Source: Escherichia coli
Lineage (GTDB): Bacteria > Pseudomonadota > Gammaproteobacteria > Enterobacterales > Enterobacteriaceae
Reading direction: 5' to 3' (one strand)
Assembly: GCF_003334255.1 (NCBI RefSeq)
Contig: NZ_QOWU01000071.1
Length of the DNA: 19,170 bases
A program made the translations under genes and the position numbers. Of the stretch, positions 6,294-19,170 are shown in pieces. Under the pieces are notes generated by a model. It searched no databases and was not told the origin of the DNA. It worked only from the letters and a program-made list of their open reading frames with translations. The stretch's first letter is position 1. Each line of letters starts with the position of its first letter.

Positions 6294-6370
6294 AAGCTGT
6301 CGCTTATGGCGGGCACAGAATGCCGTGCGTTAATGCACTGCAAGGGGTTGAATCTCTGACACGGTTTCAT
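6281..6370 (-). CDS. Leader-peptide ORF (29 codons) overlapping the repA start (tap/repA6-like)
   Basis: ATG at 6370-6368; stop TGA at 6283-6281 lies 10 nt inside repA, as in IncFII translational coupling. Peptide sequence itself not recognised. Confidence 0.4.
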
Positions 6371-6456
6371 ATATACTTATCCCGTATTCTGTGAGGCCCC
6401 CACTATCTTTCTTGAGCCCGCCAAAGTTCATCGAAAGATAGTGGGGGTTTTCCTTT
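6365..6456 (+). ncRNA. CopA-like antisense RNA (5' end uncertain)
   Basis: Plus-strand hairpin with 15-bp stem CCCCCACTATCTTTC/GAAAGATAGTGGGGG (6396-6447) followed by TTTTCCTTT; antisense to the tap start/RBS region. Possible -35 TTGAAT (6348-6353) and -10 TATACT (6372-6377). Confidence 0.45.
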
Positions 6457-10982: not shown

Positions 10983-11553
10983 CCAGAATAAATCCGGGTA
11001 AAAAAGGGCGCATTGAGGTCAGCCTTCGCAACAATCCGGCGGCAGATTCCCTGCCGCCGTGTTGCCCGTTAACGTTTAACTTCGTAGGCTAACGTTGCCA
11101 CAAGCACCGTATTTCCCTGCTCGATACGAAATCCGCAAAGCGAATCCCTCACCATCCAGACAAAACACAGTATCGTCACACAGAGGACAATTAACATTGT
11201 TAAAAACGTTCGTTGTAGCATCGCAGCCCCTCCATTGCCTTTCGGCCGTTATCGGGCTACTATAATGTTGTCTAGGCATTACAGTAGAGCCCTGGGTTGA
11301 TTGATAAAAAAATCGCCTGGGGCTTCTGCTACATGCCGTCCACAAAACGCTTTCGGCATACAGCCTCAAGCGCCCGCAGCTATTCTAATCGTTTTTCAGT
11401 CTGCCACAATCGTTTTCCATCTAATGACATGTAATGCGCAACGGTATTTTTACGGGAAACAACACGGCAAGGATTCCCGGAACACGTCCATTATTTTATG
11501 GTTACGGACATCATGTTAAATCAGAAAGTAATAATGACCTGAAAGGAAATGGT

Positions 11554-17028: not shown

Positions 17029-17176
17029 GGGTGAGAAACCCCTTGTATGGGAAAAACTTGCCATGCTCACTGCAGGTGCATTTTTGATACTGGCAATCCT
17101 GGGTGAGTAATCTTAATATCCTGTTTATTAAAGGGCAGAAGGCGGTGCCCCTCTGCCCTTAAGTACGTTTCCGGGA

Positions 17177-17287
17177 TTATCTGTCAACCAGTTCCCGGAT
17201 CAGCTCCAGGATAGCTATCACTGCATTGGCCACAGCAACAACAGCCCTGAGAACGATGATTAACAGGTTAATCATCCGCTTCTCCAT
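17177..17287 (-). CDS. Type I toxin-like small hydrophobic peptide, copy A (36 aa; 32 aa if started at second ATG)
   Basis: MEKRMINLLIIVLRAVVAVANAVIAILELIRELVDR; GGAG lies 7 nt upstream of the second ATG (17275). Copy B differs almost only at synonymous sites. Confidence 0.6.
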   Translation of the reverse strand: MEKRMINLLIIVLRAVVAVANAVIAILELIRELVDR

Positions 17288-17534
17288 CAATGGAGAAAGA
17301 ACGCCGTGGTTTGCCCTTACATTGCCTGTCGCCACGTTTTCTATAGTGTCAGTTATAGACAGTTCTTCTCCGGCCAGAGCACCAAAACCAGCACCACCTG
17401 ATGTTTTGGCCAGGACTTGCAATCTGTTCATCCCTGGAACGATATGCCGGAAAGAACGTACCTCAAGGCTGACACACCGAGTATATACTTATACGATGCT
17501 TGCAGAAATATTATTTCAGCCGTATTATTTCATA

Positions 17535-17621
17535 GTCAGTTATAGACAGTTATCTTCCGGTCAGGGCTACCAAGTTCGATCCGGAATCGTAAAAAAACCG
17601 GCCTCACCAGTCGGTTTTTTT
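17535..17621 (+). ncRNA. Candidate antitoxin small RNA, copy A
   Basis: Sigma70-like promoter TTGCAG-17 nt-TATTAT (17500-17528); intrinsic terminator ACCGGC-CTCACCA-GTCGGT plus seven T (17597-17621). 5' region 17535-17551 is a direct repeat of 17348-17364, hence complementary to the peptide mRNA leader. Confidence 0.4.
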
Positions 17622-17878
17622 ACATCTGTATATATCTGCTCCGGACTGCGCCCTGAGTCTCCCGTTGAAAATTGCCTTTTGAATTTTACGAAATACGGCA
17701 AATGGTGGATGGATGTCGAATATATTTCCAGGGGAGTTCCGGGGAAAAGCCGGCTCATGTTTGACTCACGGGAACAGACGCTGGAAGTGCAGAAAGATTT
17801 TCGATTTTTAACCTGAGCATATTTTGTTAAAGGGCAGAAGACGGTGACCCTCTGCCCTTAAGTACGTTTCCGGGATTA

Positions 17879-17986
17879 TCAGTCAACCAGTTCCCGGATC
17901 AGTTCCAGGAGAGCTATCACTGCGTTAGCCACAGCAACAACCGCCCTGAGAACGATGATTAACAGGTTAATCATCCGTTTCTCCAT
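17879..17986 (-). CDS. Type I toxin-like small hydrophobic peptide, copy B (35 aa)
   Basis: MEKRMINLLIIVLRAVVAVANAVIALLELIRELVD; versus copy A five synonymous changes, one I-to-L change and loss of the terminal Arg. Confidence 0.55.
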   Translation of the reverse strand: MEKRMINLLIIVLRAVVAVANAVIALLELIRELVD

Positions 17987-18279
17987 CAATGGAGGAAATC
18001 ACTGTTGTTTACTCTTACATTGCCTGTCACAACAGCTCTTTCATTGTTAGCTGAAAAGAGACTTCCTCCGGCCAGAGCACCAGACGCAGCACCACCTGTT
18101 TGTCTGGCCAGGTCTTTGAATAGCACAGATCCATAGTCCCGATGGATTGATGCGAAGGTAAGTCTCCAGACAAGGCTAACTTGCTGATTATACTTGTTTC
18201 AGGCGATATCGCTACTCCCGGAACAATAGACTGTAACGAACAGATTGCGATCAGGTGAATATAACGATATTCTGGTAAC

Positions 18280-18366
18280 GTTAGTTGAAAAGAGACTTCC
18301 TCCGGGCCAGAGCCACCAACTCTCCCTGGGATCGCAAAAAAGCCGGCCTCACCAGTCGGCTTTTTT
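18280..18366 (+). ncRNA. Candidate antitoxin small RNA, copy B
   Basis: Promoter-like TTGCGA-17 nt-TATTCT (18245-18273); terminator GCCGGC-CTCACCA-GTCGGC plus T-run (18341-18366). 18286-18305 is a direct repeat of 18052-18071 in the copy-B peptide leader. Confidence 0.35.
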
Positions 18367-18579
18367 GTGCCTGTCTCTCACCACCTTCTGCTGTTCCTGT
18401 GAAAATGCCCTGCTGAATTCATCCCTGCCCGGTCATTACCGGCGATTGTTCGTATTCATTCCACTCAGCCTCATCACGAAATTAATCCATTTATCTATGG
18501 AGGAATCCCCGTGTCTTACCAACAGACGTCTGCCAGTGAAGCACCAACAGAGATTTGGTATATCGTCGGTATCATATGC

Positions 18580-19170
<591 letters not shown>

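What the first reader, a model, noticed from the sequence alone, without database searches (positions are those of the whole stretch)
17348..18305. Module-specific complementarity: each putative sRNA 5' end matches a site 60-85 nt upstream of its own peptide start codon
In unit A the 17-nt sequence GTCAGTTATAGACAGTT occurs at 17348-17364 (peptide mRNA leader region) and again at 17535-17551 (start of the putative sRNA). In unit B the 20-nt sequence TGAAAAGAGACTTCCTCCGG occurs at 18052-18071 and at 18286-18305 in the equivalent positions. Because the repeats are direct and the two RNAs are made from opposite strands, each sRNA would pair with its own leader. The A and B repeat sequences are unrelated, suggesting the two modules evolved non-cross-reacting specificities, which would allow stable coexistence of two paralogous systems.
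Basis: partly seen in the sequence, partly recalled or inferred. Interest (0 to 1): 0.7.

Follow-up and report, generated by a model that had tools for sequence, protein, structure and literature searches.

The report
Two tandem AgrB/DqlB toxin-antitoxin modules
The repeats are real and mark where two neighbouring copies of a known plasmid "addiction" system (a small toxic peptide, DqlB, silenced by a small antisense RNA, AgrB) each recognise their own partner; the system is known, and only the copy-specific recognition code is a modest new detail.

Summary
Both repeats are exact, at the stated coordinates, and not chance (0 of 200 shuffles). The region holds two tandem agrB/dqlB type I toxin-antitoxin modules on an IncK2/Z-type plasmid. 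They are homologues of E. coli dinQ/agrB. RefSeq already annotates both toxins as dqlB, and both sRNAs pass the Rfam AgrB threshold.

Each repeat pairs the first 17-24 nt of an AgrB-like sRNA with a site 73-112 nt upstream of its own toxin start codon, as in dinQ/agrB and pOXA-48 agrB/dqlB. Across 21 distinct modules this 24-bp intermolecular helix is 97% paired, and 19 of 24 pairs change on both sides. That is strong evolutionary evidence for RNA-RNA pairing.

The A and B recognition segments are homologous but diverged (53-59% identity, against 94% for the ORFs). Predicted cognate duplexes are -31 and -40 kcal/mol; cross duplexes are -10 and -14. The cross values are weaker, relative to cognate, than AgrA on dinQ, which does not protect in vivo. 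With unfolding costs included, sRNA-B still shows some affinity for leader A, so the two modules may not be fully insulated from each other.

Verdict: interpretation supported, except "unrelated". This is a new member of a known kind, and no transcript or repression experiment exists for these modules.

The parts
17126..17165 (-). Terminator hairpin of toxin mRNA A
   Evidence: Inverted repeat I3, 17126-17142 / 17149-17165. Aligns with the dinQ terminator. 94% identical to the copy in unit B.
17177..17275 (-). dqlB-A toxin ORF, 32 aa: MINLLIIVLRAVVAVANAVIAILELIRELVDR
   Evidence: PGAP CDS WP_001681653.1 'DinQ-like type I toxin DqlB' on the 100% identical plasmid NZ_CP116070.1. NCBIfam NF041473.1 scores 66 bits against a cut-off of 35.
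17273..17302 (-). Element 3 (GTTCTTTCTCC, 17292-17302), SD hairpin and start codon of A (ATGGAGAAGCGGATG, 17273-17287)
   Evidence: Coordinates. The SD GGAG is predicted paired (P=1.0) in the full-length leader. Elements 1, 2 and 3 co-vary between classes.
17348..17385 (-). Target site in leader A for sRNA-A nt 1-40. It includes the exact 17-nt repeat (17348-17364) and element 2 (GCCGGAGAAGAAC, 17362-17374).
   Evidence: Duplex energy is -59.2 kcal/mol over 40 nt, with 17 contiguous Watson-Crick pairs starting at sRNA nt 1.
17446..17485 (-). 5' end of toxin mRNA A: -10 TATACT (17480-17485), predicted +1 at G17473 (GTCAGCC), element 1 GTTCTTTCCGGC (17446-17457)
   Evidence: Aligns with the mapped dinQ -10 and +1; with my dinQ +1 the SD numbering A182-G187 of PMC5066626 is reproduced. 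Element 1 pairs with element 2 in the predicted fold.
17500..17528 (+). Promoter of sRNA-A: -35 TTGCAG (17500-17505), 17-nt spacer, -10 TATTAT (17523-17528)
   Evidence: Read from the sequence. A TAnnnT hexamer lies 6-7 nt upstream of the GT(T/C)AG start in all of the roughly 25 homologous sRNA genes.
17535..17623 (+). AgrB-like antitoxin sRNA-A: 5' tail, stem-loop 1 and terminator
   Evidence: Rfam RF02891 AgrB, 43.5 bits against a gathering score of 40, model 1-84. Predicted fold.
17825..17864 (-). Terminator hairpin of toxin mRNA B
   Evidence: Direct repeat D1 and inverted repeat I4. Alignment.
17879..17974 (-). dqlB-B toxin ORF, 31 aa: MINLLIIVLRAVVAVANAVIALLELIRELVD
   Evidence: PGAP CDS WP_001363141.1 DqlB. 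NF041473.1 scores 63.7 bits.
17972..18000 (-). Element 3 (GATTTCCTCC, 17991-18000), SD hairpin and start codon of B
18046..18082 (-). Target site in leader B for sRNA-B nt 1-40. It includes the exact 20-nt repeat (18052-18071) and element 2 (18058-18072).
   Evidence: Duplex energy is -69.2 kcal/mol.
18153..18192 (-). 5' end of toxin mRNA B: -10 TATAAT (18187-18192), predicted +1 at G18180 (GTTAGCC), element 1 (18153-18166)
18245..18273 (+). Promoter of sRNA-B: -35 TTGCGA (18245-18250), -10 TATTCT (18268-18273)
18280..18368 (+). AgrB-like antitoxin sRNA-B
   Evidence: Rfam RF02891, 41.0 bits against a gathering score of 40. Predicted fold.

Best explanation
The region carries two complete, tandem agrB/dqlB type I toxin-antitoxin (plasmid addiction) modules of the dinQ/agrB family.

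In each module a sigma-70 promoter makes an sRNA of about 88 nt on the + strand. A back-to-back promoter about 60 bp away makes a toxin mRNA of about 350 nt on the - strand. The two genes do not overlap. The sRNA acts in trans through a direct DNA repeat: its 5' tail and the first half of stem-loop 1 (nt 1 to about 40) pair with leader nt 90-127, which lie 73-112 nt upstream of the DqlB start codon.

By analogy with dinQ (PMC5066626), this pairing occupies leader element 2. Element 3 is then free to sequester the Shine-Dalgarno sequence in the 3:4 hairpin. The duplex is also a substrate for RNase III. After plasmid loss the sRNA would decay first and the toxin would kill the cell.

The first 17 nt or so of the helix differ between modules A and B, and between about 10 classes family-wide. 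Each sRNA therefore recognises mainly its own leader.

Shown here: the sequence anatomy, the homology, the family membership, covariation of the intermolecular helix and of elements 1-3, and the predicted energies. Inferred: the transcripts themselves, 5' processing, RNase III cleavage, toxicity, post-segregational killing and actual insulation between the modules.
For: - Rfam AgrB matches at 17536-17623 and 18281-18368, above the gathering score.
- NCBIfam DqlB equivalog at 66 and 63.7 bits, cut-off 35. PGAP annotates two dqlB genes on plasmids 100% identical over this stretch.
- Both units align end to end with K-12 dinQ-agrA/agrB, including the -10, +1, target, SD and terminator.
- The repeats are exact and not chance.
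- In 26 of 26 modules the best duplex starts at sRNA nt 1 and ends at the homologous CT(A/G)AC of the leader.
- The 24-bp intermolecular helix over 21 distinct modules is 97.2% paired, with 19 of 24 pairs changed on both sides. 0 of 500 shuffles reach this, and slid registers give only 40-45% pairing. Permuting sRNAs among modules reaches the observed total in 0 of 100,000 trials.
- Differences between the two copies at nt 1-17 are 15 G-U wobbles against 1 A-C mismatch. Selection on RNA pairing predicts this bias; DNA homogenisation does not.
- Energies over 24 nt: cognate -31.0 and -40.4, cross -10.3 and -14.5 kcal/mol. Over 40 nt: -59.2 and -69.2 against -39.3 and -43.4. Cofold ddG: -29 and -31 to -38 against -3 to -7 for sA on mB.
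- Benchmark: AgrA on dinQ reaches 0.69 of AgrB on dinQ and does not counteract DinQ toxicity in vivo (PMC3567139). The window cross ratios are 0.25 and 0.47.
- Homologues were validated experimentally as toxic, rescued by agrB, and plasmid-stabilising on pOXA-48 (35-nt complementarity, Tn-seq essentiality of agrB; PMC12365149) and on pOXA-484 (PMC12317039).
- Leader elements 1, 2 and 3 co-vary between classes, and the SD is sequestered in the predicted folds.
Against: - No transcript, toxicity or repression data exist for these two modules. All transcript ends are inferred by homology and from promoter motifs.
- sRNA-A matches its own leader imperfectly: 28 of 33, with mismatches at nt 18 and 20.
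- In silico, the 5'-truncated leader A does not open its SD (P paired 0.99, against 0.53 for B and 0.64 for dinQ). The activation step for A is therefore unresolved.
- With unfolding costs included, sRNA-B on leader A still gives -18.5 to -21.6 kcal/mol, 63-73% of the cognate value, through the conserved core. Insulation may hold in one direction only.
- The target sites in the covariation set were located with RNAduplex against the cognate sRNA, which leans towards pairing, although all sites fall at the homologous leader position.
Confidence: 0.85

Rival explanations
1. The modules are only partly insulated. sRNA-B also binds leader A through the conserved core (CCGGCCAGAGCACCA, which overlaps element 2). 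The tandem would then be a partly redundant, hierarchical pair rather than two independent systems.
For: Cofold ddG for sB on mA is -21.6 (full-length) and -18.5 (truncated) kcal/mol, against -29.5 and -29.1 for sA on mA. The core of sB matches the core of leader A better than sA's own core does. In K-12, the imperfect AgrA still lowers full-length dinQ mRNA about 3-fold (PMC3567139).
Against: The sB 5' tail has no helix longer than a few bp with leader A: -14.5 against -31.0 kcal/mol over 24 nt. In the sRNA the core is buried in stem-loop 1. AgrA shares the identical core with AgrB yet does not protect against DinQ (PMC3567139). In the reverse direction, sA on mB is essentially nil at -3 to -7 kcal/mol.
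Confidence: 0.2
2. Only one module is active. Module A is a decaying copy, like AgrA in K-12, whose imperfect repeat is a relic.
For: The A repeat is 28 of 33 with two internal mismatches. Truncated leader A does not open its SD in silico. Decay does occur in this family: orphan sRNAs in L009 and L015, and a frameshifted third toxin on the same plasmid.
Against: The dqlB-A ORF, SD, promoters and terminators are intact. Seventeen contiguous pairs from sRNA nt 1 are retained. The A-class module is conserved with its cognate sRNA in other plasmids (L009, L010, L028, L006). Where decay is seen it removes the toxin, not the antitoxin, and here both are present.
Confidence: 0.1
3. The direct repeats act at the DNA level, for example as operators for a shared regulator or as recombination or duplication scars, with no RNA-RNA role.
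For: They are direct DNA repeats about 190-235 bp apart that flank a divergent promoter region.
Against: Across 21 modules the two copies change together while keeping complementarity, with 19 of 24 double-sided changes. Differences between copies are almost all G-U-compatible, 15 to 1 at nt 1-17. Only RNA pairing predicts that bias. The repeat starts exactly at the sRNA 5' end in every module. AgrB/dinQ duplex formation and RNase III cleavage were shown in vitro for the homologue (PMC5066626).
Confidence: 0.02

Closest known systems
dinQ-agrA/agrB of E. coli K-12 (type I TA; Weel-Sneve 2013 PMC3567139; Kristiansen 2016 PMC5066626)
   Same: Single-transmembrane peptide with the LELIR motif. 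Divergent, non-overlapping sRNA gene. The sRNA 5' 31-34 nt are complementary to the leader about 70-110 nt upstream of the start codon. Four-element leader with a sequestered SD. Terminators are conserved. The whole unit aligns with dinQ.
   Different: No LexA operator at the toxin promoters. The locus is on a plasmid. There are two complete toxin+sRNA modules, whereas K-12 has one toxin with one active sRNA (AgrB) and one inactive sRNA (AgrA). The recognition segments differ from dinQ/AgrB: cross duplexes are -6 to -16 kcal/mol against -41. The peptides fall in the DqlB model, not the DinQ model.
agrB-dqlB of pOXA-48 (IncL) and pOXA-484 (IncX3) (PMC12365149, PMC12317039); dql family named in PMC5066626
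   Same: Same family and same architecture. A 35-nt complementarity between the 5' UTR and agrB was reported. Toxicity, agrB rescue and plasmid stabilisation were shown. dqlB was reported in 83% of IncB/O/K/Z and 67% of IncI1 plasmids.
   Different: Those are single modules of other recognition classes: IncL/M GTCAATTGTTT... and IncX3 GTCAGTTGTAGAGAG.... The papers I searched did not discuss tandem modules, recognition classes or cross-reactivity.
Multi-copy type I TA loci with copy-specific antitoxins: ibs/sib (Han et al. 2010, listed in the references of PMC4147584) and zorO-orzO/zorP-orzP of E. coli O157 (Wen, Won & Fozo 2014; recalled from my own knowledge, not verified here)
   Same: Paralogous toxin/sRNA pairs in one genome, in which short variable segments of the sRNA discriminate the cognate mRNA. 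For zor/orz the modules are tandem, with divergent trans-acting sRNAs that pair in a long 5' UTR.
   Different: The toxin and sRNA families are unrelated to this one. Those loci are chromosomal. Discrimination there was tested experimentally; here it is only predicted.
hok/sok (also present in this window at 11219-11375)
   Same: Plasmid type I addiction module with an inert full-length mRNA and a processed, active form.
   Different: Sok is a cis-overlapping antisense RNA. Here the sRNA gene does not overlap the toxin transcript: the two +1 sites are 61 bp (A) and 99 bp (B) apart and point away from each other.

Membership tests
dinQ/agrB - dqlB/agrB type I toxin-antitoxin family | Small hydrophobic single-helix toxin that matches the DinQ/DqlB protein model | tested here: met
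   NCBIfam NF041473.1 (DqlB equivalog) at 66 and 63.7 bits, cut-off 35. The DinQ model NF041472.1 scores below its cut-off. PGAP annotates both as dqlB.
dinQ/agrB - dqlB/agrB type I toxin-antitoxin family | sRNA that matches the AgrB covariance model (unstructured 5' tail, stem-loop 1, terminator) | tested here: met
   Rfam RF02891 at 43.5 and 41.0 bits, gathering score 40, full model length. These scores are only just above threshold. nhmmer with a family profile gives 81 and 74 bits.
dinQ/agrB - dqlB/agrB type I toxin-antitoxin family | sRNA gene lies upstream of the toxin gene, is transcribed divergently and does not overlap it | tested here: met
   Predicted toxin +1 at 17473 and 18180; sRNA +1 at 17535 and 18280; back-to-back promoters. 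The layout matches K-12. Transcript ends were not mapped here.
dinQ/agrB - dqlB/agrB type I toxin-antitoxin family | About 30-35 nt of complementarity between the sRNA 5' end and the toxin 5' UTR, far upstream of the SD | tested here: met
   Repeats of 33 nt (85%) and 26 nt (96%). The duplexes start at sRNA nt 1. Covariation in 19 of 24 pairs over 21 modules.
dinQ/agrB - dqlB/agrB type I toxin-antitoxin family | Leader with mutually exclusive elements 1:2, 2:3 and 3:4 that control SD access | tested here: inconclusive
   All four elements are present and co-vary, and the SD is sequestered in the full-length folds. The predicted opening after 5' truncation is seen for B (0.53) and dinQ (0.64) but not for A (0.99).
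dinQ/agrB - dqlB/agrB type I toxin-antitoxin family | Toxicity of the peptide, rescue by the sRNA, RNase III cleavage of the duplex, and post-segregational killing | not testable with these tools
   Shown only for homologues (PMC3567139, PMC5066626, PMC12365149, PMC12317039).
dinQ proper (SOS-regulated chromosomal locus) | LexA operators that overlap the toxin promoter | tested here: not met
   No CTG-N10-CAG motif lies at either toxin promoter. The only such motifs (17398, 18096) lie inside the transcribed leader. The K-12 control is found at the dinQ promoter.
hok/sok-type cis-antisense type I TA | Antitoxin RNA is transcribed from the strand opposite the toxin mRNA and overlaps it | tested here: not met
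   The sRNA genes lie wholly outside the predicted toxin transcripts. Complementarity comes from a direct repeat, not from overlap.

The most novel reading that the evidence does not exclude
Plasmid agrB/dqlB has diversified into many mutually insulated recognition classes. I found at least 10 among 21 distinct modules. They are set by about 15 hypervariable nucleotides at the sRNA 5' end and the matching leader site.

Plasmids stack modules of different classes. This plasmid carries A, B and a third class. Plasmids also retain orphan antitoxin sRNAs of classes whose toxin they lack (L009, L015). Such orphans could neutralise the addiction modules of competing plasmids (anti-addiction). On this reading the recognition code is a battleground of plasmid-plasmid competition rather than a simple duplication.
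Probability: 0.3. Interest if true: 0.55.

Novelty: new member of a known kind. Interest (0 to 1): 0.3.

Why it matters
agrB/dqlB is one of the commonest addiction systems on IncI, IncK, IncB/O, IncL/M and IncX resistance plasmids. Sequences related to this stretch are found in 1143 of 5426 complete E. coli genomes, and the tandem itself in 143. The antitoxin sRNAs are not annotated in RefSeq.

A short, co-varying recognition code decides which sRNA silences which toxin. Knowing it matters for three things:
- predicting which co-resident plasmids protect each other from post-segregational killing;
- designing antisense or CRISPR plasmid-curing strategies, such as the agrB-carrying TAP of PMC12365149;
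- annotation.

The mechanism itself is not new.

Tried and rejected
- **Full-length RNAduplex.** Running whole sRNAs against whole mRNAs gave long, unrealistic duplexes that ignore intramolecular structure. I replaced it with 40-nt and 24-nt 5' segments and with cofold ddG.
- **Ungapped 33-nt complementarity matrix.** One-nucleotide bulges in the conserved core, such as sB CCGGGCC against leader CCGGCC, blurred it. I restricted the covariation test to nt 1-24, which are ungapped in all modules.
- **Genome-contig scan.** An ORF/terminator pattern returned only 6 loci, so I built the comparison set from PLSDB hits.
- **LexA control as in dinQ.** Rejected for the promoters. The putative SOS box reported at -119 of dqlB on pTF2 (PMC12211044) corresponds to a motif inside the transcribed leader.
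- **Other targets of sRNA-A or sRNA-B in the window.** None found with up to 2 mismatches.
- **Literature.** No paper found on dql recognition classes, tandems or cross-reactivity. One search failed for lack of capacity. OrzP/zorP was not found in PMC5397157, so the zor/orz comparison rests on my memory.
- **Not run.** A metagenome scan for more modules, because the covariation signal was already saturated.
Full report
**Observation**

GTCAGTTATAGACAGTT is at 17348-17364 and 17535-17551. TGAAAAGAGACTTCCTCCGG is at 18052-18071 and 18286-18305. Each occurs only twice in the window, even with 2 mismatches allowed, and no dinucleotide shuffle gives two copies.

The repeat finder extends them to 33 nt at 85% identity and 26 nt at 96%. 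It also shows that the whole region is a tandem duplication with a period of about 700 bp: a 175-nt block at 94% identity and a 118-nt block at 72%.

**What it is**

Rfam finds two AgrB sRNAs (RF02891) at 17536-17623 and 18281-18368 on the + strand. Both are just above the gathering score, at 43.5 and 41.0 against 40. The same scan finds PK-repZ and sok elsewhere in the window, so the window is an IncI-complex plasmid.

The stretch is 100% identical to IncK2/Z plasmids such as NZ_CP116070.1. There PGAP annotates two 'DinQ-like type I toxin DqlB' genes, which correspond to window 17177-17275 and 17879-17974 on the - strand. Both peptides match the NCBIfam DqlB equivalog at 66 and 63.7 bits, cut-off 35.

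Each unit aligns from terminator to sRNA terminator with the K-12 dinQ-agrA/agrB locus. When I place the dinQ +1 at GTTAGC, my numbering reproduces the published positions of the SD (A182-G187) and of element 1 (U16-C28) (PMC5066626). The homologous starts are therefore G17473 (GTCAGCC) for A and G18180 (GTTAGCC) for B, each 6-7 nt downstream of a -10 hexamer (TATACT, TATAAT).

The sRNA genes have their own promoters: TTGCAG-17-TATTAT for A and TTGCGA-17-TATTCT for B. In all of the roughly 25 homologous sRNA genes I collected, a TAnnnT hexamer sits 6-7 nt upstream of the GT(T/C)AG that begins the repeat.

The repeats therefore lie at the very 5' end of each sRNA and inside each toxin leader. 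Measured from the annotated ATG, the exact repeats are 73-97 nt upstream and the full duplex reaches about 110 nt.

**Is the pairing real?**

I collected homologous loci from PLSDB across IncI1, IncI-gamma/K1, IncK2/Z, IncB/O, IncX1, IncX3, IncX4, IncN, IncL/M, IncF, IncHI2 and a Buttiauxella plasmid. I added chromosomal dinQ loci from E. coli, E. albertii and others. sRNAs and leaders were located with nhmmer.

In 26 of 26 modules the best duplex between the sRNA and the neighbouring leader starts at sRNA nt 1. It ends at the homologous CT(A/G)AC of the leader. Collapsing duplicates gave 21 distinct modules. I joined the 24-nt leader site and sRNA nt 1-24 of each with an artificial GAAA linker, and the alignment is ungapped.

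| Measure on the 24-bp intermolecular helix | Result |
|---|---|
| Cells forming a standard pair | 97.2% |
| Pairs with changes on both sides | 19 of 24 |
| Cells with a change on both sides | 113 (shuffled mean 34) |
| Shuffles reaching the observed values | 0 of 500 |
| Pairing when the register is slid by 1-3 columns | 40-45% |
| Permutations of sRNAs among modules reaching the observed total | 0 of 100,000 |

Where the two copies of a module differ within nt 1-17, the differences are 15 G-U wobbles against one A-C mismatch. Neutral transitions in DNA repeats would give roughly equal numbers of each. The constraint therefore acts on RNA pairing, not on DNA identity.

One caveat: the target sites were located by duplex prediction against the cognate sRNA, which favours pairing. 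However, they all sit at the same homologous leader position, 16-17 nt upstream of the conserved GACAGGCA.

**Module specificity**

The A and B recognition segments are not unrelated. They are homologous positions that have diverged.

| Segment, A compared with B | Identity |
|---|---|
| dqlB ORF and toxin terminator | 94% |
| Variable part of the target | 53% |
| sRNA nt 1-17 | 59% |
| sRNA terminator | 86% |

Predicted duplex energies (kcal/mol):

| Pair | 24 nt | 40 nt | Cofold ddG, full-length / truncated leader |
|---|---|---|---|
| sA on mA (cognate) | -31.0 | -59.2 | -29.5 / -29.1 |
| sB on mB (cognate) | -40.4 | -69.2 | -31.2 / -38.2 |
| sA on mB (cross) | -10.3 | -39.3 | -3.3 / -7.0 |
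| sB on mA (cross) | -14.5 | -43.4 | -21.6 / -18.5 |
| AgrB on dinQ | -41.3 | -62.1 | -36.7 / -40.7 |
| AgrA on dinQ | -28.5 | -46.6 | -21.0 / -25.0 |

An internal benchmark exists. In K-12, AgrA matches 25 of 31 nt of dinQ and does not counteract DinQ toxicity. AgrB matches 30 of 31 and does (PMC3567139). In my 24-nt metric AgrA reaches 0.69 of AgrB, while the window's cross pairs reach only 0.25 and 0.47 of the cognate values.

The cofold figures include the cost of unfolding both RNAs. By that measure sA on mB is negligible. sB on mA retains affinity through the conserved core, at about the relative strength of AgrA on dinQ. Insulation is therefore well supported for A on B and probable, but not certain, for B on A.

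Using the AgrA benchmark as threshold, the 21 modules fall into 10 classes, and 87% of non-cognate pairs are at or below the benchmark. Every multi-module arrangement I saw combines different classes. These are window/L028 (A+B), L014/L019 (IncX3-type plus GTTGG-type), and a third, frameshifted module of the GTTGGATG class elsewhere on the same plasmid.

**Mechanism**

This part rests on analogy with dinQ (PMC5066626). Both leaders contain the four elements of the dinQ switch:

| Element | Module A | Module B |
|---|---|---|
| 1 | GTTCTTTCCGGC | GAGACTTACCTTCG |
| 2 | GCCGGAGAAGAAC | GCCGGAGGAAGTCTC |
| 3 | GTTCTTTCTCC | GATTTCCTCC |
| 4 | SD region (ATGGAG) | SD region (ATGGAG) |

Elements 1-3 co-vary between classes. 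In the predicted full-length folds, element 1 pairs with element 2 and the SD is locked in the 3:4 hairpin.

Removing the first 44 nt partly opens the SD for B (P paired 0.53) and dinQ (0.64). Blocking the sRNA target closes it again (1.00 and 0.99). Leader A stays closed in this crude model (0.99), so its activation step is unresolved.

sRNA binding would thus mimic element 1, keep the SD sequestered and create an RNase III substrate. Post-segregational killing follows if the sRNA is the less stable partner. Toxicity, agrB rescue and plasmid stabilisation were demonstrated for the pOXA-48 and pOXA-484 homologues (PMC12365149, PMC12317039). None of this has been tested for these two modules. 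Unlike dinQ, the toxin promoters carry no LexA operator.

**Comparison and novelty**

The family is known. dinQ/agrAB was described in 2013, the dql genes were named in 2016, and plasmid agrB/dqlB was validated in 2025 with a reported 35-nt complementarity. The two toxin genes here are already annotated in RefSeq, although the sRNAs are not.

Copy-specific recognition by type I antitoxins is also an established idea, from Sib/Ibs and, from my memory, Zor/Orz. I found three things not discussed in the papers I searched:
- the family-wide covariation of the recognition helix;
- its partition into about 10 classes;
- the stacking of different classes in tandem.

I therefore rate this a new member of a known kind with modest interest.

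Noticed in passing
L009 2218-2305 (CP104411.1); L015 2155-2241 and 2535-2621 (NZ_CP134667.1): Orphan AgrB-like sRNAs with no adjacent toxin leader. L009 has an A-class module followed by a B-class sRNA only. L015 has one toxin of a third class with its cognate sRNA, followed by B-class and A-class sRNAs in tandem. These could be relics left after toxin loss, or anti-addiction elements aimed at competing plasmids.
   Followed up: partly
Outside the window: NZ_CP116070.1 23383-23946 (L029): The plasmid that is 100% identical to the window over the modules carries a third agrB/dqlB module of another class (sRNA 5' GTTGGATGTAGAGTATC, -64 kcal/mol with its own leader). Its toxin ORF is frameshifted by an extra A, so the antitoxin is kept and the toxin inactivated.
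   Followed up: partly
L002 763-845 (K-12 agrA) vs L003 (E. albertii dinQ locus): The 5' end of K-12 AgrA matches the E. albertii dinQ leader better (29 of 33) than the K-12 dinQ leader (26 of 33). In E. albertii the sRNA at the agrA position matches its own dinQ at 31 of 33. AgrA may therefore be a relic of a different recognition class rather than a degenerated AgrB copy.
   Followed up: partly
window 17467-17473, 17535-17539, 17348-17352 (A); 18174-18180, 18280-18284, 18046-18050 (B): The toxin mRNA 5' end begins with the same pentamer as its own sRNA (GTCAG in A, GTTAG in B), and the target ends with its complement (CTGAC, CTAAC). This three-way covariation fits the mRNA 5' end acting as an intramolecular mimic of the sRNA, the a/a' interaction of PMC5066626.
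   Followed up: partly
window 17398-17413 and 18096-18111: CTG-N10-CAG (LexA-like) motifs lie inside the transcribed leaders, not at the promoters. The equivalent site on IncI1 plasmid pTF2 was listed as a putative SOS box at -119 of dqlB (PMC12211044). Its position argues against a classical operator role.
   Followed up: partly
window 18027-18173 (-) and 17177-17431 (-): The 48-aa 'hypothetical protein' WP_001346191.1 annotated by PGAP lies entirely within leader B and covers the sRNA target, so it is probably a spurious call. The 84-aa ORF over unit A is an N-terminally extended reading of dqlB-A.
   Followed up: partly
window 17535-17623 and 18280-18368: RefSeq/PGAP records of identical plasmids annotate both dqlB toxins but no ncRNA for the AgrB-like antitoxins. 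Sequences related to this 1.4-kb stretch occur in 1143 of 5426 complete E. coli genomes, and the tandem itself in 143.
   Followed up: yes
window 11219-11375 (-) and 6306-6455 (-): A sok antitoxin RNA (116 bits), which implies a hok/sok module, and the repZ regulatory pseudoknot (162 bits) are also in the window. The plasmid therefore carries at least three type I addiction modules, and NZ_CP116070.1 also has several type II TA systems.
   Followed up: no
window 18623-19069 (-): A 148-aa ORF with a transposase-like sequence lies directly downstream of sRNA-B, and the window ends inside it. In NZ_CP116070.1 a group II intron (ltrA) follows. Module B thus abuts an insertion, whereas trbA follows in related plasmids.
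   Followed up: no
L016 636-731 (NZ_CP126949.1): A second annotated dqlB ORF keeps only the SD-proximal part of its leader (model positions 185-316). It has no target site and no sRNA upstream, so it is a toxin ORF without a recognisable antitoxin. It is either dead or regulated differently.
   Followed up: no
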